DNA from: Mobula hypostoma
Taxonomy: Eukaryota
Direction of reading: 5' to 3'
Assembly (NCBI RefSeq): GCF_963921235.1
Contig: NC_086097.1
Coordinates: forward strand, 72,356,001-72,420,000
Length of the DNA: 64,000 nt
Part shown: positions 15,510-63,012 of the stretch, piece after piece
Layout of the letters: every line of letters begins with the position of its first letter
Numbering within the stretch: position 1 is the first letter of the stretch
Program-made: the position numbers and the translations under genes
The notes under the pieces: model-generated
Databases searched by the model: none
Told to the model about the DNA's origin: nothing
Seen by the model: only the letters and a program-made list of their open reading frames with translations

Positions 15510-15602
15510 TTCAGATGAAGGGCCAACCTGAAATGTTAACTGTTTTCTGTCCATTGTTGCTGCTGAGCCTTCTGCGTGTTTCCAGCATTTTATGATTTTA
15601 TT
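15510..15602 (+). mobile_element. Old PLE 3'-terminal fragment starting at a decayed hammerhead motif
   Basis: TTCAGATGAAGGGCCAACCTGAAATGTTAACTG...TTTCCAGCATTT resembles the terminus of the 20212-23872 element. Confidence 0.55.
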
Positions 15603-19237: not shown

Positions 19238-19360
19238 ACAAAATACTGCCTGCAGATACTGGAAATCTGGAGGAATTCAACCCAAAGCACCAACTATTGT
19301 ACTTCCTCTATAGTTGCTGCCTGGCCTACTCAGTAGCTTTAGCTCCTTTGTGTATTGCTC
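19238..19360. mobile_element. Old PLE terminal remnant, apparently fold-back
   Basis: CTGCAGATACTGGAAATC (minus-strand tail) followed by CTATAGTTGCTGCCTGGCCTACT...TTTGTGTATTGC (plus-strand terminus). Confidence 0.5.
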
Positions 19361-20242
19361 CGTTTGGTTTATTTGCTACACTCATTACTGAAAAATGAAT
19401 CCTTCCAAGTAATAATGGACTGGTAATGACGAATGACATTTTCCAAACCCTTCCAATTCCCTTTCTTTGCCTCTAGTAATATGACATTTGTAGTATATAG
19501 CTGTGGTGTTTAACTGTCTTAGTTAAATAGGCATTCATTTTACTACTGATCTTGTAAGGCATCATGAACATAGGAGCAAAAGAAATAAAGCAGGAGGTAG
19601 CCATTCGGTTTCAAGATTGCCTTGCTATTCATTAACCTCATGGATGATCGCCTACTTTGGCACCATTTTCCTGCCCTGCCCTGCATGCTGTAGCTGCATG
19701 TTAACTTTCAATAATTTGTTTACAATAACACCCATGTCCCTTTGAAGATGAATATTTTTCAATTTCTTACCTTTTAAATCATACGCTTAAAGCAAGATTT
19801 GTCTTTTCTCTATCAAATTGGATTGCCTTGCATTTTTCTATATTTTTCTTTAGTGGTCATGTTGCTGCTTTCTCATTAAGTTTGTCTATATCCCCTTGAA
19901 GTCTCCTAGCTATTTAGGTGACCTATATTTCTATCCCTATTCAGCCTCACCCCCTCCAGCTCTTTCACTGTGTAATAGTCAGGCTAAATCCTGGTAAAAT
20001 GAAGTGTTTGTTTTTCACTATTCTGTGGTTGCTTATTGTTTTACATTAGGTTGAATTGAGTACCATTCTTTGTTATTGACACTGGGTTGAAAAGTACATG
20101 TTTTAACATTGTTGCTTGTACCAAATATTAACATGGTGTCTAACTGCTGGAAAAATACAATGCAACCACTTGAGTGAAAAATGTAATGGAAATGAGAAGA
20201 TAAATAACGTTAACAACAGGAATTCTGCAGATGCTGGAAATT

Positions 20243-20841
20243 CAAGCAACACACATCAAAGTTGCTGGTGAACGCAGCAGGCCAGGCAGCATCTATAGGA
20301 AGAAGCGCAGTCGACGTTTCAGGCCGAGACCCTTCGTCAGGACTAACTGAAGGAAGAGTGAGTAAGGGATTTGAAAGCTGGAGGGGGAGGGGGAGATGCA
20401 AAATGATAGGAGAAGACAGGAGGGGGAGGGATGGAGCCGAGAGCTGGACAGGTGATAGGCAGAAGGGGATACGAGAGGATCATGGGACAGGAGGTCCGGG
20501 AAGAAAGACGGGGGGGGGGGACCCAGAGGATGGGCAAGAGGTATATTCAGAGGGACAGAGGGAGAAAAAGGAGAGTGAGAGAAAGAATGTGTGCATTAAA
20601 AAGAGTAACAGATGGGGTACGAGGGGGAGGTGGGGCCTAGCGGAAGTTAGAGAAGTCAATGTTCATGCCATCAGGTTGGAGGCTACCCATACGGAATATA
20701 AGGTGTTGTTCCTCCAACCTGAGTGTGGCTTCATCTTTACAGTAGAGGAGGCCGTGGATAGACATGTCAGAATGGGAATGGGATGTGGAATTAAAATGTG
20801 TGGCCACTGGGAGATCCTGCTTTCTCTGGCGGACAGAGCGT
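20243..20841 (-). repeat. 3' pseudo-LTR of the PLE (endonuclease C-terminus plus 3' UTR)
   Basis: Near-identical reverse complement of 23273-23872. It is followed by a 31-nt tail (20212-20242) that the other copy lacks. Confidence 0.95.
20309..20344 (-). ncRNA. Minimal type I hammerhead ribozyme motif (sense to the PLE ORF)
   Basis: The minus strand reads AGUC-CUGACGA-AGG(GUCUCGG)CCU-GAAA-CGUC^-GACU. It has stem I AGUC/GACU, an intact CUGANGA and GAAA core, a palindromic ACGU stem III and a GUC cleavage triplet. Confidence 0.85.
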
Positions 20842-21017
20842 AGATGTTCAGCAAAGCGGTCTCCCAGTCTACGTCGGGTCTCACCAATATATAAAAGGCC
20901 ACATCGGGAGCACCGGACACAGTATATCACCCCAGTCGACTCACAGGTGAAGTGATGCCTCACCTGGAAGGACTGTTTGGGGCCCTGAATGGTGGTAAGG
21001 GAGGAAGTGTAAGGGCA
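20637..21017 (-). pseudogene. PLE GIY-YIG endonuclease domain (out of frame with RT)
   Basis: CPYTSSLTTIQGPKQSFQVRHHFTCESTGVIYCVRCSRCGLLYIGETRRRLGDRFAEHLR...VATHFN...GMNIDF*. It has the VIY/YIG motifs and the CxxC/His residues typical of PLE endonucleases. Confidence 0.92.
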
Positions 21018-23272
21018 TTGTTCCGCTTACACAGATAAGTGCCAGGAGGGAGATCAGTGGGGAGGGATGGGGGGGACGAATGGACAAGGGAGTTGTGTAG
21101 GGAGCGATCCCTGCGGAATGTAGAGAGAGGGGGGGAGGGAAAGATATGTTTAGTGGTGGGATCCCGTTGGAGGTGGCGGAAGTTACGGAGAATAATATGT
21201 TGGACCCGGAGGCTGGTGGGGTGGTAGGTGAGGACCAGGGGAACCCTATTCCTAGTGGGGTGGTGGGAGGATGGAGTGAGAGCAGATGTACGTGAAATGG
21301 GGGAGATGCGTTTAAGAGCAGAGTTGATAGTGGAGGAAGGGAAGCCCCTTTCTTTAAAAAATGAAGACATCTCCTTCGTCCTAGAATGAAAAGCCTCATC
21401 CTGAGAGCAGATGCGGCGGAGACGGAGGAATTGCGAGAAGGGGATGGCGTTTTTGCAAGAGACAGGGTGAGAAGAGGAATAGTCCAGATAGTTGTGAGAG
21501 TCAGTAGGCTTATAGTAGACATCAGTGGATAAGCTGTCTCCAGAGACAGAGACAGAAAGATCTAGAAAGGGGAGGGAGGTGTCAGAAATGGACCAGGTAA
21601 ACTTGAGGGCAGGGTGAAAGTTGGAGGCAAAGTTAATAAAGTCAACGAGTTCTGCATGCGTGCAGGAAGCAGCGCCAATGCAGTCGTCGATGTAGCGAAG
21701 GAAAAGTGGGGGACAGATACCAGAATAGGCACGGAACATAGATTGTTCCACAAACCCAACAAAAAGGCAGGCATAGCTAGGACCCATACGGGTGCCCATA
21801 GCTACACCTTTAGTTTGGAGGAAATGGGAGGAGCAAAAGGAGAAATTATTAAGAGTAAGGACTAATTCTGCTAGACGGAGCAGAGTGGTGGTAGAGGGGA
21901 ACTGATTAGGTCTGGAATCCAAAAAGAAGCGTAGAGCTTTGAGACCTTCCTGATGGGGGATGGAAGTATATAGGGACTGGACATCCAAGGTGAAAATAAA
22001 GCGGTGGGGGCCAGGGAACTTAAAATCATCGAAAAGTTTAAGAGCGTAAGAAGTGTCACGAACATAGGTCGGAAGGGATTGAACAAGGGGTGATAAAACA
22101 GTGTCGAGGTATGCAGAAACGAGTTCGGTGGGGCAGGAGCAAGCTGAGACAATAGGTCGGCCAGGACAGGCAGGTTTGTGGATCTTGGGTAGGAGGTAGA
22201 AACGGGAAGTGCGGGGTGTGGGAACTATAAGGTTGGTAGCAGTGGATGGGAGATCCCCTGAGCGGATAAAGTCGTTGATAGTGTGGGAGACAATGGCTTG
22301 GTGCTCCTTAGTGGGGTCACGATCAAGGGGTAAATAAGAGGAGGTATCCGCGAGTTGTCGCTGTGCCTCGGCAAGGTAGAGGTCAGTACGCCAGACTACA
22401 ACAGCACCCCCCTTATCAGCGGGTTTAATAATAATGTTAGGATTAGTGCGGAGGGAGTGGAGAGCAGAGCGTTCCGAAGGAGTGAGGTTGGAATGGGGAC
22501 AAGGTGCGGTGAAGTCGAGACGGTTGATGTCCCGTCGGCAGTTGGCAATAAAGAGATCCAGAGCAGGCAGAAGACCAGAGCGGGGTGTCCATGAAGAAGA
22601 GGAGGGATGAAGACGGGAGAAGGGGTCATCGGTGGGGGTGGAAGAGTCCTTGCCGAAGAAGTAGGCTCGGAGACGGAGACGGCGGAAGAAAAGTTCCGCA
22701 TCATGGCGAACACGGAACTCGCTGAGGTGTGGGCGAAGGGGGACAAACGTGAGGCCCTTACTGAGAACAGAGCGTTCTGCCTCCGACAGTTGAAGGTCGG
22801 AGGGGATGGTAAAGACCCGGCACGGATGAGAGCTGGGATCAGAGGGGGGAGGGGGGAGGCTGGGGGTGTCAATGGAGAGGGGAGGGTTGGGGTGAGAGGA
22901 AGATGGAGCCTCTGAGGGCCCAGGAGCTGACGGTGGGATCTGAGGAAGACGGGGCTGCGGAGTGGTGGTGGGGGAAGGGGAGACGGGAGTCACAACAGCA
23001 GCACATAAAGACCCGGCCTGGAGTTCAAGGCTGGAGTCGCAGTTGGTGGTTGCGCGATCGCTTTGAATGTCTCCATGGTCGTTGCTGGAGTCCGGGTTTT
23101 GAATATGTCCTGAGGTGTTGGAGCCGCCGAGACCAACGGCAGGGGCCGCAACCGAAAGTTCATGCCTGCTAGCGTCGGGGCCGGCAGGCTCTGGAGTCCG
23201 TAGATGTAAGATCTTGCGATCTTTGCCTAACATGAGAAAGTCAAAGAAACGGCGATTGCAGGCGTGGATTGC
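21018..23272 (-). pseudogene. PLE reverse transcriptase (open for ~750 codons, 5'-truncated)
   Basis: Part of ORF 20960..23329. Motifs LSKGLTFVP, IKPADKGG, YLLPKIHK..PGRPIVS, LDVQSLYTSI, QTKGVAMGT..PSYA, RYIDD, LPFLD and DVYYKPT are diagnostic of PLE RTs. Confidence 0.95.
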
Positions 23273-23872
23273 ACGCTCTGTCCGCCAGAGAAAGCAGGAT
23301 CTCCCAGTGGCCACACATTTTAATTCCACATCCCATTCCCATTCTGATATGTCTATCCACGGCCTCCTCTACTGTAAAGATGAAGCCACACTCAGGTTGG
23401 AGGAACAACACCTTATATTCCGTATGGGTAGCCTCCAACCTGATGGCATGAACATTGACTTCTCTAACTTCCGCTAGGCCCCACCTCCCCCTCGTACCCC
23501 ATCTGTTACTCTTTTTAATGCACACATTCTTTCTCTCACTCTCCTTTTTCTCCCTCTGTCCCTCTGAATATACCTCTTGCCCATCCTCTGGGTCACCCCC
23601 CCCCCGTCTTTCTTCCCGGACCTCCTGTCCCATGATCCTCTCGTATCCCCTTCTGCCTATCACCTGTCTAGCTCTCGGCTCCATCCCTCCCCCTCCTGTC
23701 TTCTCCTATCATTTTGCATCTCCCCCTCCCCCTCCAGCTTTCAAATCCCTTACTCACTCTTCCTTCAGTTAGTCCTGACGAAGGGTCTCGGCCTGAAACG
23801 TCGACTGCGCTTCTTCCTATAGATGCTGCCTGGCCTGCTGCGTTCACCAGCAACTTTGATGTGTGTTGCTTG
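23273..23872 (+). repeat. Inverted 5' pseudo-LTR of the PLE
   Basis: Reverse complement of 20243-20841. The ORF track shows the same peptide (RSVRQRKQDLPVATHFN...NIDFSNFR) on both strands. Confidence 0.95.
23771..23806 (+). ncRNA. Minimal type I hammerhead ribozyme motif (on the NOVA1 pre-mRNA strand)
   Basis: AGTC 23771-74, CTGACGA 23775-81, stem II 23782-94, GAAA 23795-98, CGTC with predicted cleavage after 23802, GACT 23803-06. Confidence 0.85.
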
Positions 23873-23886
23873 AGATAAATAACGTT

Positions 23887-24997
23887 TCTCCTTCAAAGAA
23901 TGGGGTTTCCCTTCCTCCACCATTGATGCTGTCTTCACCAGCATCTCCTCTATTTCCTGGATATCCAAGTTCATCCTATCTTCCTGCTGCCTTGACATGG
24001 ATAGAGTTCCTCTTGTCCTTGCCTACCACCCAATGAGCCTCCGCATCCAACACATCATTCTCTGTAACTTCCGCCACCTTCAACGGGATCCTACTACCGA
24101 ACACATCAAGCACATCTTTACCTCCCCTACCCTACTCTTTGCTTTCTGCAAGGGTCACTCTCTCCATGATTATCTTGTCTGTTCATTCCTCCCCACAAGC
24201 TCCTACCTGGTACATATTCCTGAAAGCGACAGAAATGATATGCCTACCCATTCACCTCCTGGCTTGCCTCTATTCAAGGCCCCAATCATTCCTTCCAGAT
24301 GAGGCAATATGTTACCTCTGAATCTGTTGGGGTCATCTATTGTGTATGGTGCTCCTGATGGAGCCTCCTCTATATTGGTGAGACCCAACGTAAATTGGGA
24401 GACCACTTTGTCGAGCTCCTCTGCTCTGTCTGCCAAATGCAGAGTTTCCGGTAGCCAACCATTTTGATTCCTATTCCCATTCCTGTTCCATGGTTGATAC
24501 ATACCCTCCTCTTTTGTCATGCTGAGGCTACTCTCAGGGTGGAGGAGCAACACCTGATATTCCATCTACGTAGCCTCCAATCTGATAGCATGAACATCGA
24601 TTTCTCCTTCTGGTAATTATTTTTTCCCTCTCCCCTTTCCCTCTTTTTCTATTCCCCACTCTGGCCTCTTACTACTTCTCCTCACCTACTAATCACCTTC
24701 CCCTGGTGCCCTTCCTTCTTCCTTTTCTCCCATGGTCTACTCTCCTCTCCTATCATATTCTTCCTTCTTCAGACCTTTACCTTTCCCACCCACCTATCTT
24801 CACCTATTATCTTCCTTCCTCTCCTCTGTTTTTTATTCTGACATCTTCTCTCTTACTTTCCAATCCTGAAGAGGGATCTCAGCCAAAAATATTGACTGTT
24901 TATTCATTTCCATTGATGCTGCCTGACCTGTTGAGTTCCTCCAGCATTCTGTGTGTGTTACTCTGGATTTCCAGCATCTGCAGAATCTCTTGTATTT
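23887..24997 (+). mobile_element. Older PLE 3' fragment (RT thumb, GIY-YIG, 3' UTR)
   Basis: DRVPLVLAYHPMSLRIQHIILCNFRHLQRDPTT and GVIYCVWC..LLYIGET remnants, a decayed hammerhead at ~24862-24897, and the terminus TTTCCAGCATCTGCAGAATCTCTTG. Confidence 0.9.
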
Positions 24998-27376: not shown

Positions 27377-27510
27377 CAGAGTTGATGTTTTGGGTCAATG
27401 GCTTTTAATTGATCTGATAAAAGGTCATTGATCTGAAATATTAACTCTGTTTTTCTCTCTCCACAGACATCCCTTGACTTGCAGAGAATTTCTAGCACTT
27501 TATGTTTCTG
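27377..27510 (+). mobile_element. Old PLE-terminus fold-back insertion
   Basis: 27377-27407 (CAGAGTTGATGTTTTGGGTCAATGGCTTTTA) is an imperfect reverse complement of 27418-27449. The pivot sits at a decayed hammerhead (CTGATAAAAGGTCATTGATCTGAAATATTAAC). Confidence 0.6.
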
Positions 27511-31233: not shown

Positions 31234-31592
31234 TCAGATCGAGACCCTTCGTCAGGACTAACTGAAGGAAGAGTTAGTAAGAGATTTGAGAGGGGGAAGG
31301 GGAGATCCAAAATGATAGGAGAAGACAGGAGGGGGAGGGATTGGGCCAAGAGCTGGACAGGTCTTGGCTCCATCCCTCCCCCCCGTCGTCTCCTATCATT
31401 TTGGATCTTCCTGTCCCCCTCCCACTTTCAAATCTCTTACTAACTCTTCCTTCAGTTAGTCCTGACAAAGGGTCTCGGCCTGAAACGTTGACTGTACCTC
31501 TTCCTAGAGATGCTGCCTGGCCTGCTGCGTTCACCAGCAACTTTGATGTGTGTTGCTTGAATTTCCAGCATCTGCAGAATTCCTGTTGTTTG
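31234..31592 (+). mobile_element. Non-coding PLE fold-back insertion (359 bp)
   Basis: Inverted arm ~31234-31355 against ~31362-31485, complete 3' terminus, 15-bp TSD TGTAGGTTATTTGTT at 31219-31233 and 31593-31607. The hammerhead at 31458-31493 has the core change CTGACAA and a GTT triplet. Confidence 0.92.
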
Positions 31593-31699
31593 TGTAGGTT
31601 ATTTGTTATTATTTTTGAAATTAGTCTTCATTAATGTACCTTGGGATCTGGAACAAAAGCAGTTGATTGATAAGTCAGCAATGATGCACCAGTGAGGGT

Positions 31700-47531: not shown

Positions 47532-48006
47532 TTCAAGGTAGTTGACAACAGCTTCTCAATGGCAATTTGAGATGGGTAATAAATTCTGGACTTGCCAGCT
47601 GCATACACATTCTGTGTATAGCTCTTTATTTTTAAAAAAAAATCACAAGGTTTTGCCTGGTCGCACCTTGGTGGTAAATTGTAACAATCGAGAAACGGTT
47701 TTGATTGTTGGAAGGATTCAGGAGCAAAGAATTGGAAGACCGTTGCAAATTTTACAGTTATTGTTGAAATGTGGACACTAAGTCTACTTGGCAGTAGGCC
47801 TTTCTCTAGTGGGTTGCAAATGTCTGTGAAAGTGCTGCTTTGAGTCTCCTCAGGTAGGGGTTCTCCAACATTTCAAGGGTGATTGTTTTGTTTTCATTCG
47901 TGTAAAATGCTGCAGTTTTTGTAAAAAAAAGAGAAATTTTTATTGTTGCTATAGTTTCTCTACTTGATGTTTTTCTTTACCCTGAGATCCAAGGCAAGTA
48001 ATACAT

Positions 48007-48182
48007 TAACACGAGGAAATCTGCAGATGCTGGAATTTCAAGCAACACACATAAAAGTTGCTGGTGAACACAGCAGGCCAGGCAGCAGGAAGAGGTACAG
48101 TCGACATTTCGGGCCGAAACGTCGACTGTACCTCTTCCTGCTGCCTGGCCTGCTGCGTTCACCAGTAATTTTCATGTGTGTT
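48007..48182 (-). mobile_element. 176-bp palindromic PLE-terminus insertion
   Basis: Two inverted arms meet at GTCGACATTTCGGGCCGAAACGTCGAC, inside hammerhead stem II. 13-bp TSD GCAAGTAATACAT at 47994-48006 and 48183-48195. Only the left arm has the ~30-nt tail. Confidence 0.92.
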
Positions 48183-48769
48183 GCAAGTAATACATCGTTG
48201 TTCTACTGGCCCAAGGCTGGAAAAATGAATGAAAAACATAATTCTGCAATGTTGTCAGCTGCTTCCAAAGTTATCAGAGTAAAATCTCAGCACAATTATG
48301 GTGATTAAAACCTTCTGGACAAAAAGACAAGAAAGCAGCTGTGATGATTCACTTGTGACATAGTTTCCTGTGGTCTCTGCTTTAATTGAGTGGCAAATTC
48401 CCAACCCCAGGAAACACATGAACACATAATAATTTTGGAACAGCTATTTAAGAAAACAACCTTAATTGAGCAATTAACATATCGATATTGGTGACAGTGG
48501 TGACAGGTATTTCCCTAAAGGTCTAATGAAGTCGAAACTTAGATAAATACTAAGTCAGTGGGCTGCATTGGCTTCCCAACTAGATGATCAATTTCCCAGG
48601 GTTTAACCCTGCAGCTATTTTGAAATTCACTTGCTCTTGGACATTGCACATCCATTTAAAGTATTTATGTAGGAGGTCTGCAGTTACTTTTTTTCATTTG
48701 CAATGTGACACTCTTTGACAAGGCAACACACAAAATGCTGGAGAAACACAGTGGATCATGCAGCATAAA

Positions 48770-57362: not shown

Positions 57363-57620
57363 CACACAAAATACCCAAAATGTAGGAGGACCTCAACAGT
57401 TTAGGTAGCACTTATAGAGGAAATAAGCAGTTGACATTTCAGCTTGGCTTCTGCTGATGAAGGGTCTTGGCCCAAAATGTTGAATGTTTATTTTGACCCA
57501 TAGAACAGCTGAGTTCCTACAGAATTCTGAGTATTTTGTGTATACCTGACCAGCTGAGTTTCTCCAGCAATTTCTGTATTTTGTGCGTGTTGTTCAAGAT
57601 TTCCGATATATGCTGTCCCT
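57363..57620 (+). mobile_element. Old PLE-terminus fold-back insertion
   Basis: A minus-orientation arm ends at CAGTTGACATTTCAGC, directly followed by plus-orientation CTGATGAAGGGTCTTGGCCCAAAATGTTGA. Confidence 0.65.
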
Positions 57621-62800: not shown

Positions 62801-62875
62801 TGGAAGCACCAGTGTTGTACACCATGATTAGTAGATAGTGAGAGGAGTTGAGAGAAGAGTCAGTTTCTTTTTTTC

Positions 62876-63012
62876 GTCAGTGTCCTGACGAAGGGTCTCG
62901 GCCTGAAACGGCGACTGTATCTCTTCCTAGAGATGCTGCCTGGCCTGCTGCGTTCACCAGCAACTTTTTTGTGTGTTGCTTGAATTTCCAGCATCTGCAG
63001 TATTCCTCTTGT
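62876..63012 (+). mobile_element. 137-bp PLE-terminus insertion with a micro-inversion at the hammerhead core
   Basis: 12-bp TSD TTTCTTTTTTTC at 62864-62875 and 63013-63024. TTCGTCAG (62873-80) is the reverse complement of CTGACGAA (62885-92). The cleavage triplet is mutated to GGC. Confidence 0.88.

What the first reader, a model, noticed from the sequence alone, without database searches (positions are those of the whole stretch)
47994..48195. Family of tiny hairpin retro-insertions whose fold-back point is the hammerhead
Seen: this 176-bp palindrome (13-bp TSD) turns around inside hammerhead stem II. The same geometry recurs in independent insertions of different ages: 27377-27449, 57363-57540, 62873-62892 and probably 19238-19360. 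Non-inverted fragments at 15510, 28262 and 63180 also begin at or just before the motif. These look like MITEs but have long TSDs and asymmetric tails, so they are retrotransposition products. Inference: the ribozyme fold or its cleavage sets where PLE reverse transcription stops, snaps back or switches template, generating a SINE-like class of ~100-350 bp hairpin elements. I do not know of this ribozyme-pivot pattern having been described, and it is the best candidate for a new system in the window.
Basis: partly seen in the sequence, partly recalled or inferred. Interest (0 to 1): 0.85.

Follow-up and report, generated by a model that had tools for sequence, protein, structure and literature searches.

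The report
Penelope retroelement head-to-head hairpin insertion
The 176-base palindrome is one insertion of a very abundant Penelope-like jumping gene that landed as two truncated copies joined head to head, a known habit of these elements; the only modestly new point is that the copies tend to end at the element's small hammerhead motif.

Summary
Window 48007-48182 is a 176-bp palindrome flanked by an exact 13-bp target duplication, and its centre lies in loop II/helix II of a minimal hammerhead motif.

It is not a new class. It is the 3' end of a Penelope-like element (PLE: reverse transcriptase plus GIY-YIG endonuclease) inserted as two head-to-head 5'-truncated arms. One arm carries the ~37-nt 'tail' and the other lacks it. 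This architecture is described for PLEs in papers of 2013, 2021 and 2024. Earlier notes of this scan reached the same reading on other DNA of this genome.

- In about 350 kb sampled without regard to structure, 27 of 41 mapped arm ends between 40 and 300 nt from the 3' end fall in the 36-nt hammerhead.
- In a genome-wide count of the youngest subfamily (730 arms), loss per base is 3.4-4.5 times the flanks over the 10 nt covering the hammerhead's 5' edge.
- No sampled end lies at the cleavage site.

The main pile-up is at the 5' edge, not in helix II. The most likely cause is the 5' end of a short template RNA, but this is unproven.

Verdict: new member of a known kind, with a modest quantitative addition.

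The parts
47994..48006 (.). Target-site duplication, left copy (GCAAGTAATACAT)
   Evidence: Exact 13-nt direct repeat
48007..48117 (-). Tail-bearing arm: the last ~117 nt of the PLE (d0 to d116) read on the minus strand. It carries a 6-nt deletion also present in the other arm. The last 4 nt (48114-48117, CCGA) are microhomology shared with the other arm.
   Evidence: BLAST to the long PLE copy in the window; alignment of arms
48007..48043 (-). The one-sided 'tail' (~37 nt), present only in this arm
   Evidence: Mirror of position 48182 about the centre at 48113. Tail-less arms of 19 of 28 genomic hairpins end at d32-40 (read from the alignment).
48100..48126 (.). Junction: two 3' halves of the hammerhead motif (GAAAC, GTC|GAC) head to head. 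No CUGANGA box in either arm.
   Evidence: motif positions from the intact copy at 20309-20344
48114..48182 (+). Tail-less inverted arm (about d109-112 down to d37-39)
48183..48195 (.). Target-site duplication, right copy
20212..23272 (-). Parent-type copy: a 3.06-kb 5'-truncated PLE, tail-bearing arm. It holds an open RT frame of 770 aa, the GIY-YIG domain in another frame, a ~290-nt 3' UTR, the hammerhead and the tail.
20309..20344 (-). Intact minimal hammerhead motif of the parent-type copy (d133-d98): AGUC / CUGACGA / A / GGGUCUCGGCCU / GAAA / CG / UC|GACU
   Evidence: Read. No Rfam model matches it.
23273..23873 (+). Tail-less inverted arm (d630 to d31) of the same insertion, 99.5% identical to the other arm. 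Target duplication GATAAATAACGTT at 20199-20211 and 23874-23886.
31234..31593 (.). A third two-armed insertion of the same family. The pivot is ~105 nt upstream of the hammerhead (arms reach d235-242). The inverted arm's outer end is at d105. Target duplication GTAGGTTATTTGTT.
62876..63012 (+). Linear 137-bp copy that begins at the 5' edge of the hammerhead (d131-132) after 7 extra bases. Target duplication TTTCTTTTTTTC.
27377..27449 (.). Head-to-head junction of another, older PLE family. Pivot beside the CUGAUGA box.
57363..57540 (.). Head-to-head junction of another decayed PLE copy. The inverted arm ends near GAAA and the forward arm holds the whole motif.
   Evidence: Read. Not reported by the repeat finder.

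Best explanation
Shown:
- Window 48007-48182 is a single retrotransposition event of a very abundant, recently active Penelope-like element (PLE).
- It consists of two 5'-truncated copies of the element's last ~117 nt, joined head to head.
- One arm starts at the very 3' end and carries a ~37-nt tail. The other starts ~37 nt inside.
- One 11-13 bp target duplication brackets both arms.
- Both arms were copied from one template.

Inferred mechanism: as shown in vitro for a lizard PLE, the protein nicks both target strands, and each nick primes reverse transcription at one of two start sites a tail-length apart. The two cDNAs are then joined by a template switch. In this copy the join uses the 4-nt microhomology TCGG/CCGA, which the hammerhead's loop II and helix II happen to supply.

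Shown genome-wide: arm ends pile up in the 36-nt hammerhead, most sharply at its 5' edge (d130-134) for tail-bearing arms and more diffusely inside it (d106-130) for tail-less arms.

Inferred, about 50% sure: d133 is the 5' end of a short template RNA, that is, the pseudo-LTR boundary, possibly a transcription start at a YYANWYY-like TCAGTCC/TTAGTCC. The first cDNA runs off there and jumps onto the second, still-growing cDNA.

On this reading the hammerhead marks the place but neither its cleavage nor, probably, its fold causes the stop.
For: Identity
- Arms match the 3' end of window copy 20212-23272.
- That copy encodes an open frame with a below-cut-off RVT_1 match (24.1 bits against 29.6) and a YIDD motif.
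- It also encodes a GIY-YIG domain above cut-off (24.4 against 22.6 bits).

One event per hairpin
- 26 of 30 genomic hairpins have their own exact flanking repeat of 9 nt or more, all different. The control gave 5 of 580.

One template for both arms
- The arms of a copy share 27 minority states. Shuffled arm pairs share a mean of 5.6 and at most 14 in 2000 shuffles.
- The window copy has the same 6-nt deletion in both arms.

Recurrence
- 28 of 30 fetched loci have the same junction, spread over several subfamilies. This set is biased, because the query was the hairpin itself.

Tail
- Tail-less arms end at d31-40 in the sample, and in the 3.66-kb insertion as well.

Peak, small sample
- The sample was the window, 200 kb from random places, and the flanks of the 30 fetched loci.
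- 27 of 49 mapped ends, and 27 of the 41 lying between d40 and d300, fall in d98-133. The expected share is 36/261 (binomial p = 3e-14).
- 14 ends fall in d130-139. None falls at d100-103.

Peak, genome-wide exact-match count of the youngest subfamily
- All patterns end at d60. Reversed-pattern controls gave 0.
- Arms reaching d99: 730. d119: 630. d129: 523. d139: 375. d159: 309.
- Loss per nt: 0.0074, 0.0186, 0.0333 and 0.0097.
- 148 of 523 arms are lost over d130-139, against 9.2% expected from d140-159 (p = 1e-35).
- The excess over d120-139 is about 144 arms, or 20% of the 730.

Two-armed share
- Of the first 100 exact arms listed (contigs C1, C2), 42 form 21 head-to-head pairs. In 15 of the 21 the d99 positions of the two arms lie 100 nt or less apart (tally done by hand).
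- In the three such pairs where one search identifies the tail-bearing arm, that arm is the one that reaches d129.

Literature (passages read)
- Inverted 5'-truncated copy plus 30-40 bp tail: PMC8557442.
- Palindromes at inverted junctions and a self-priming idea: PMC3846280.
- Both strands nicked and extended, two start sites a tail apart, products running to the RNA 5' end, and hammerhead mutants without effect on insertion: PMC11167929.
Against: - The cause of the d130-134 pile-up is not shown. No RNA data with real 5' ends were available; one search listed contigs only.
- One tandem pair's upstream member runs past d159. So not every upstream copy starts at d133.
- The Inr-like motif is weak evidence. 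Four of its seven bases are fixed by helix I.
- Three of four long two-armed insertions have the tail-less arm longer than the tail-bearing arm (423/699, 443/615, 235/242). A simple fold-back of one cDNA therefore cannot explain all cases. Conversely, near-blunt perfect palindromes (L013, L036c) fit two cDNAs that both reach one end.
- The genome-wide count lacks its planned control for mutational loss, a pattern of equal length extended 3'-ward. The flank rates therefore include both truncation and mutation, and d100-129 holds four CpGs.
- The 49-end table was partly curated by eye. Arms of old copies whose upstream sequence no longer aligns were left out as undetermined (about 10 arms: L033, L034b, L035a/b, L037, L042, L045a/c/d, L048, win24864). 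This could favour ends that abut an inverted arm.
- In the youngest subfamily the excess is moderate (about 20% of arms), not dominant.
Confidence: 0.78

Rival explanations
1. One reading: the hammerhead's fold, or its self-cleavage, is what stops PLE reverse transcription or makes it snap back. This would create a distinct SINE-like class of hairpin elements.
For: Ends of both kinds of arm are concentrated within the 36-nt motif (counts). Tail-less arms end inside the motif (d106-130) rather than at its edge. The window-type junction uses bases of loop II and helix II. Other PLE families in the window also pivot in or beside their motifs.
Against: - Cleavage: 0 of 49 ends at d100-103, and the loss rate is lowest across d100-119.
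- Fold: the largest peak is at the far (5') edge, reached only after the whole motif has been copied.
- The 51-nt region folds no better than shuffles (-13.9 kcal/mol, z -0.36) and the minimum-energy fold is not the hammerhead.
- In vitro, hammerhead catalytic mutants of a lizard PLE did not change insertion products (PMC11167929).
- Two-armed insertions with pivots far from the motif exist (d235-3061).
Confidence: 0.15
2. The ~187-bp hairpins are a self-propagating non-autonomous family. Hairpin master copies would be transcribed and retrotransposed as hairpins, so the shared junction is inherited rather than remade.
For: The same junction occurs in 28 of 30 fetched loci, and the outer end of the tail-less arm is nearly constant. 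The first look gave 2477 candidates. Penelope of D. virilis has an internal, LINE-like promoter (PMC2377424), so short copies might be transcribed.
Against: - Variants present before insertion are symmetric in both arms (27 shared minority states against 5.6 expected; the private 6-nt deletion and two private substitutions present in both arms). One mutation in a hairpin master cannot give this.
- The junction occurs in several PLE subfamilies that match contemporary linear copies.
- In the youngest subfamily the junction positions differ from pair to pair (gaps of 35 to 99 nt).
- The exact 27-nt junction occurs at only 6 places, though CpG decay lowers that count.
- Not excluded: a hairpin copy could serve as source if only its tail-bearing arm is copied and the second arm is remade each time.
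Confidence: 0.2
3. A MITE or other cut-and-paste DNA transposon with terminal inverted repeats.
For: Palindromic shape and flanking direct repeats.
Against: Flanking repeats vary from 9 to 18 nt among copies. The two ends are unequal: a 37-nt tail on one side only, and a variable outer end on the other. Both arms are the 3' end of an RT + GIY-YIG retroelement.
Confidence: 0.01
4. A linear PLE fragment that became a palindrome later, by a DNA replication or repair template switch at the short inverted repeat.
For: The parent sequence holds a short self-complementary stretch (TCGGSCCGA) at the pivot.
Against: The target duplication brackets both arms together. The second arm consistently stops a tail-length short of the end, which is a signature of PLE integration. 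The same architecture occurs with pivots at many other positions.
Confidence: 0.02
5. A microRNA or other hairpin RNA gene.
For: Below-threshold Rfam matches to miRNA models (mir-3926: 54.4 bits against a gathering score of 82, both strands).
Against: All matches are below threshold and occur on both strands, as expected of any long perfect hairpin. The sequence is a repeat with thousands of copies. Expression was not testable.
Confidence: 0.01

Closest known systems
Penelope-like element insertions with an adjoining inverted 5'-truncated copy (inverted pseudo-LTRs) and a one-sided 30-40 bp tail (Arkhipova et al. 2013, PMC3846280; Craig et al. 2021, PMC8557442; passages read)
   Same: Head-to-head arms, a palindrome at the inverted junction, one target duplication of variable length around the whole unit, a tail on one arm only, and a hammerhead in the terminal repeat.
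   Different: Here most units are tiny (100-300 bp, no ORF) and extremely numerous. In the passages I read those papers do not map arm ends onto the hammerhead.
In vitro integration by the green anole PLE 'PAc' (Mob DNA 2024, PMC11167929; abstract and main text part 1 read)
   Same: It offers the mechanism: both target strands nicked and extended, two reverse-transcription start sites a tail-length apart, an AC-rich stem-loop at the start site (here GCAAC...GTTGC at d55-37), and a hammerhead ~70-100 nt upstream of the start sites.
   Different: A different host and family, and in PAc the ORF starts inside the hammerhead. No joined two-armed products or hammerhead-linked stops are reported in what I read. 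The paper's supplementary figures were not seen.
Minimal type-I hammerheads of PLEs (Cervera and de la Pena 2014, PMC4209133; passages read)
   Same: CUGANGA core, an extra base before helix II, G10.1-C11.1, GAAA, a 1-bp helix III with a palindromic CG loop, and a location in the terminal repeat. That paper notes pairs of motifs 100-700 bp apart on opposite strands and many single motifs 'probably related to truncated PLEs'.
   Different: In the window palindrome the two motifs are not apart. Each arm keeps only the 3' half, and the halves are fused.
5' inversions of LINE-1 by twin priming (recalled: Ostertag and Kazazian 2001; not read here)
   Same: The second target strand primes a second cDNA, giving an inverted 5' part within one target duplication.
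   Different: In twin priming the inverted part comes from RNA upstream of the uninverted part. Here both arms copy the same 3'-terminal segment (a true palindrome), and the second start site is fixed ~37 nt from the end.
Animal non-LTR retrozymes (bioRxiv 10.64898/2026.07.22.740005; abstract and outline only)
   Same: Short non-autonomous derivatives of PLE terminal repeats that carry hammerheads.
   Different: Retrozymes are head-to-tail tandem repeats thought to move through circular RNA. These units are head-to-head, and many lack a complete ribozyme.

Membership tests
Penelope-like element (endonuclease-containing) | Reverse transcriptase domain | tested here: inconclusive
   The 770-aa open frame of the parent-type copy matches Pfam RVT_1 at 24.1 bits, below the 29.6 cut-off (E 3.3e-5). 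LPKIHKP and YIDD motifs are read. No match among PDB sequences.
Penelope-like element (endonuclease-containing) | C-terminal GIY-YIG endonuclease | tested here: met
   Pfam GIY-YIG at 24.4 bits against a 22.6 cut-off, on the 129-aa frame 20640-21026 (-). In this copy it lies in a different frame from the RT.
Penelope-like element (endonuclease-containing) | Inverted 5'-truncated copy abutting the element, within one variable-length target duplication | tested here: met
   Window insertions at 20212-23873, 31234-31593 and 48007-48182. 26 of 30 genomic hairpins have their own 9-18 nt flanking repeat.
Penelope-like element (endonuclease-containing) | 30-40 bp tail present at one end only | tested here: met
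   Tail-less arms end at d31-40 in the sample and in 19 of 28 aligned hairpins (read). The other 9 of 28 end at d44-63.
Penelope-like element (endonuclease-containing) | Partial tandem copies forming direct pseudo-LTRs | tested here: inconclusive
   Two same-strand pairs of 3' ends, 3479 and 3513 nt apart, among 40 scored copies. Their sequence could not be fetched, and no such pair is in the window.
Hammerhead ribozyme (minimal type I of PLEs) | Conserved core CUGANGA ... GAAA ... UH cleavage site, in type-I order | tested here: met
   Read in the intact copy 20309-20344 (-): CUGACGA, GAAA, GUC. NOT met in the flagged palindrome, whose arms lack the CUGANGA box.
Hammerhead ribozyme (minimal type I of PLEs) | Helices I and II can pair; 1-bp helix III with a palindromic loop; extra base before helix II | tested here: met
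   AGUC/GACU, GGG(U)/(G)CCY, A-CG-U and the extra A are read. Other families in the window change helix II on both sides (GGUC...GACC at 27417-27440). This was read by eye and not counted.
Hammerhead ribozyme (minimal type I of PLEs) | Match to a curated covariance model | tested here: not met
   No hammerhead family of Rfam 15 matches anywhere in the window, at gathering score or at E up to 10. The minimum-energy fold of the region is not the hammerhead.
Hammerhead ribozyme (minimal type I of PLEs) | Self-cleavage | not testable with these tools
   Needs a cleavage assay. Such minimal motifs are said to act as dimers (PMC4209133).
MITE / DNA transposon | Equal terminal inverted repeats and a target duplication of fixed length | tested here: not met
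   Unequal ends (tail on one side) and duplications of 9-18 nt.
LINE-type twin-priming inversion | The inverted segment derives from RNA upstream of the direct segment | tested here: not met
   Both arms cover the same d37-d116 segment.
Non-LTR retrozyme | Head-to-tail tandem repeats, each with a hammerhead | tested here: not met
   Arms are head to head. No tandem array of the unit was found in the ~350 kb sampled.

The most novel reading that the evidence does not exclude
The hammerhead, or the protein bound to it, is a programmed end-point or turn-around for Penelope reverse transcription. It would define a minimal ~100-135-nt template, so that every transcribed copy sheds tiny one- or two-armed 'solo terminal repeat' insertions by the hundred thousand. 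That would give the long-unexplained PLE hammerhead a role in setting template boundaries rather than in cutting RNA.
Probability: 0.15. Interest if true: 0.65.

Novelty: new member of a known kind. Interest (0 to 1): 0.3.

Why it matters
What hammerheads do in Penelope-like elements is an open question (stated in PMC8557442). How PLEs make their inverted repeats is only partly worked out.

This genome offers thousands of very young insertions: 730 exact 40-mers, and 22,775 within 2 mismatches. In them the ends of both cDNAs can be read directly. They show a real, localised excess of ends at the hammerhead's 5' edge and none at its cut site.

That narrows the models to two: run-off at an RNA 5' end followed by a jump onto the second cDNA, or a stop imposed by the fold. 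It also names a cheap test, 5'-end mapping of PLE RNA.

For genome annotation it explains a very common class of 100-300 bp palindromes in this cartilaginous-fish-type genome that could be mistaken for MITEs or microRNA genes.

Tried and rejected
- Rfam at gathering score and at E up to 10: no hammerhead model matches. Only below-threshold microRNA and snoRNA models hit the hairpins, so these were rejected as shape artefacts.
- Genome search with the 62-nt tail: nothing, because very common words are skipped. It says nothing about copy number.
Loci could not be cut out, so only its table was used.
- Sequencing runs: no RNA holder listed, and all 22 runs are kept as contigs.
- Laying four runs: contigs only. 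No starts or ends can be read. Summed contig depth falls about 2.5-fold past d131 in all four runs, and one contig each in two runs joins d90 to d132 on opposite strands. The tool states that such depth cannot rank parts of a stretch, so I do not count this as evidence.
- RNA fold of the motif region: no better than shuffles. The fold is not the hammerhead.
- PDB sequence search with the RT frame: no match.
- My first reading of the 3.66-kb insertion as a 631-nt arm plus a 3030-nt arm with a 'recurrent d630|d3060 junction' was wrong. The middle part lies on the minus strand and the 'junction' is the element's own continuity.
- My first motif coordinates were one too high. They were corrected.
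- A first symmetric/asymmetric variant count used a faulty alignment. It was replaced.
- A simple single-cDNA fold-back as the only mechanism is rejected. Some centres leave 0-1 unpaired bases, and some tail-less arms are longer than their partners.
- Splice-site-like (TTCCTTCAG|) and Inr/DPE-like readings of the bases just upstream of the motif were considered. They are kept only as leads.
Full report
**What is at the coordinates**

Window 48007-48182 is a 176-bp palindrome. The arms are 78 nt and 90% complementary, with 1 nt between them. It lies between two exact copies of GCAAGTAATACAT, at 47994-48006 and 48183-48195. The window is part of a 3.48-Gb, 200-contig eukaryotic assembly. I did not test that.

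**What the arms are**

Both arms match the last ~117 nt of a 3.06-kb element on the minus strand at 20212-23272. That element has these parts:
- An open frame of 770 aa with a below-cut-off RVT_1 match (24.1 against 29.6 bits) and a YIDD motif.
- A GIY-YIG endonuclease domain above Pfam's cut-off, in another frame.
- A ~290-nt 3' UTR.
- A minimal type-I hammerhead motif, AGUC-CUGACGA-A-GGGUCUCGGCCU-GAAA-CG-UC|GACU.
- About 100 further nt to the 3' end.

This is a Penelope-like element (PLE). I number positions as d, the distance from the 3' end, using the copy at 20211-20841. The motif spans d133 to d98 and the predicted cut lies between d102 and d101. No Rfam hammerhead model matches it at gathering score or at E up to 10. 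The name therefore rests on the core motifs and helices read by eye, and on the published description of such minimal motifs in PLEs (PMC4209133, passages).

**Anatomy of the palindrome**

On the minus strand the left arm runs from the element's very 3' end (48007) up to d116. The right arm, on the plus strand, runs from about d109-112 down to d37-39. It therefore lacks the last ~37 nt, the 'tail'. The two arms overlap in a 4-nt microhomology (CCGA/TCGG, 48114-48117). In the intact element these bases belong to loop II, the 3' strand of helix II and the core GA. Neither arm keeps the CUGANGA box, so the palindrome holds two fused 3' halves of the motif and no ribozyme. Both arms carry the same 6-nt deletion.

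**The same architecture elsewhere in the window**

- Insertion 20212-23873 (target duplication GATAAATAACGTT) has a 3062-nt tail-bearing arm and a 601-nt tail-less inverted arm that is 99.5% identical to it.
- Insertion 31234-31593 (duplication GTAGGTTATTTGTT) pivots ~105 nt upstream of the motif.
- Insertion 62876-63012 is a linear copy that starts at the motif's 5' edge after 7 extra bases.
Their pivots lie beside or inside their own motifs. The '62873-62892' fold-back is only 5 bp.

**Genome-wide recurrence**

A search with the palindrome gave 2477 first-look candidates, of which 40 were scored, and I fetched 30 loci.
- 28 of the 30 loci have the same junction. L026 and L030 differ.
- 26 of the 30 have their own exact flanking repeat of 9-18 nt, against 5 of 580 mismatched controls.
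- This set is biased towards the query.
- Within it, the two arms of a copy share 27 minority states, against a mean of 5.6 (maximum 14 in 2000 shuffles) for shuffled arm pairs.
- Private variants sit in both arms in L001 (one deletion), L005 and L009.

So the two arms of an insertion come from one template. The junction was also formed repeatedly, or re-formed at every round, in several subfamilies.

**Is there a peak at the hammerhead? Small sample**

My sample, taken without regard to structure, was the window, 200 kb from places drawn at random and the flanks of the 30 loci. I mapped arm ends by BLAST and local alignment. I kept only ends fixed by a target duplication or by abutting an inverted arm. 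About 10 arms of old copies were left out as undetermined.
- 27 of 49 ends lie in d98-133.
- Of the 41 ends between d40 and d300, 27 lie there, where 36/261 is expected (p = 3e-14).
- 14 ends lie in d130-139 and none at d100-103.
- Tail-bearing arms end sharply at d129-134. Tail-less arms end at d106-132.
- Several junctions carry 5-9 extra bases.
- Pivots elsewhere also occur (d72-95, d235-3061).

**Is there a peak at the hammerhead? Genome-wide count**

I counted exact matches to nested stretches of the youngest subfamily, all ending at d60. The reversed-pattern controls gave 0.

| Stretch reaches | Arms |
|---|---|
| d99 | 730 |
| d119 | 630 |
| d129 | 523 |
| d139 | 375 |
| d159 | 309 |

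- The loss per base is 0.0074, 0.0186, 0.0333 and 0.0097 for the four successive intervals.
- 148 of 523 arms are lost in d130-139. From d140-159, 9.2% would be expected (p = 1e-35).
- The excess over d120-139 is about 144 arms, or 20% of the 730.
- Flank rates include mutation. The planned mutation-only control could not be run.
- Among the first 100 exact arms listed, 42 form 21 head-to-head pairs. In 15 of the 21 the d99 positions of the two arms lie 100 nt or less apart. The gaps differ from pair to pair (35-99 nt), so these junctions are made anew each time (tally by hand).
- In the three such pairs where one search identifies the tail-bearing arm, it is the arm that reaches d129.
- The window's own junction type is rare in this youngest set. 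At most one pair (gap 35) comes near it.

**Mechanism**

The shown facts are these: one event, two arms from one template, a fixed ~37-nt offset of the second arm's outer end, and ends concentrated at the motif.

The published in vitro work on a lizard PLE supplies the frame (PMC11167929):
- The protein nicks and extends both target strands.
- Reverse transcription starts at two internal sites a tail-length apart.
- Products run to the 5' end of the RNA.
- Hammerhead mutants do not change insertion.

I infer that each target strand primed one cDNA and that a template switch joined them. Why the ends pile up at d130-134 is open.

I favour the 5' end of a short RNA, that is, the boundary of the pseudo-LTR, for four reasons:
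- The peak lies on the far side of the motif, which the enzyme reaches only after copying it.
- The ends are sharp for the first (tail-bearing) arm.
- Extra bases and near-blunt palindromes fit run-off followed by a jump.
- Penelope of D. virilis has an internal LINE-like promoter, with the motif close to the RNA's 5' end (PMC2377424; PMC4209133).

The bases at the boundary (TCAGTCC or TTAGTCC) fit YYANWYY, but helix I fixes four of the seven. The consensus itself is recalled, not taken from a call. A stop imposed by the fold or by bound protein is not excluded. The region's predicted stability is ordinary.

**What is known and what is new**

The following are in print, in the passages I read:
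- The inverted 5'-truncated copy, the one-sided 30-40 bp tail, and hammerheads in the terminal repeats (PMC8557442).
- Palindromes at the inverted junction and a self-priming idea (PMC3846280).
- Pairs of motifs on opposite strands 100-700 bp apart (PMC4209133).

Earlier agents of this scan reached the same reading for fold-back copies elsewhere in this genome. In four literature searches and in the passages read, I found no mapping of arm ends onto the hammerhead. Three limits apply to that statement:
- The library lacks most subscription journals. Evgen'ev and Arkhipova 2005 and Lunse et al. 2017 are recalled, not read.
- I saw no supplements.
- Fig. S2 of the 2024 paper and files S1/S2 of the 2021 paper may bear on this.

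**Verdict**

The finding is a correct observation of a known kind of insertion in a new host. It adds a modest quantitative point: a localised excess of ends at the motif's 5' edge and none at the cut site. This is worth one RNA 5'-end experiment.

Noticed in passing
window 20212-23886: A very young two-armed PLE insertion whose arms are 99.5% identical over 599 nt. The RT frame (770 aa, open to the truncated 5' end) and the GIY-YIG frame overlap in different reading frames around 20960-21026. This is either a frameshift in this copy or a feature of the family.
   Followed up: partly
genome-wide: The subfamily looks recently active. A 40-nt stretch occurs 730 times exactly and 22,775 times with up to 2 mismatches. 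40 of 40 scored copies were 100% identical over 101-102 nt. Two same-strand pairs of 3' ends lie 3479 and 3513 nt apart, which suggests the unit length.
   Followed up: partly
window 31234-31593: The inverted arm's outer end is not at the usual d31-40 but at d105, 3 nt from the predicted hammerhead cut site. The second cDNA may here have started on the 3' end of a cleaved RNA, or this may be coincidence.
   Followed up: no
window 20345-20366 (minus strand): Just upstream of the hammerhead lies a polypyrimidine tract ending in CAG (CTCACTCTTCCTTCAG|TTAGTC), which looks like a 3' splice site. In D. virilis Penelope an intron is reported to end at the 5' end of helix I (PMC4209133). Two tail-less or forward arms in the sample begin at d147-148, near a possible branch site.
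   Followed up: no
window 19238-19360: An odd old copy: ~30 nt of antisense tail joined directly to a sense piece running from the hammerhead's 3' half (about d112) to d37. It amounts to a two-armed insertion whose tail-bearing arm is almost only the tail.
   Followed up: no
L012:1-2428 (G000:C40): One of the ~187-bp hairpins is nested inside an older long PLE copy. The flanks on both sides continue the same element (d2252-730, then d741-32).
   Followed up: no
window 31281-31430 and 48070-48156: PLE hairpins score up to 54 bits against Rfam microRNA models on both strands, below the gathering scores. Automatic microRNA prediction in this genome would be flooded by such copies.
   Followed up: no
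window 23892-24986: An older, ~71-77% identical PLE copy lies directly next to the young insertion. Several other decayed PLE families with their own hammerhead variants are scattered through the window (15510, 27417, 28262, 57440, 58765, 63180).
   Followed up: partly
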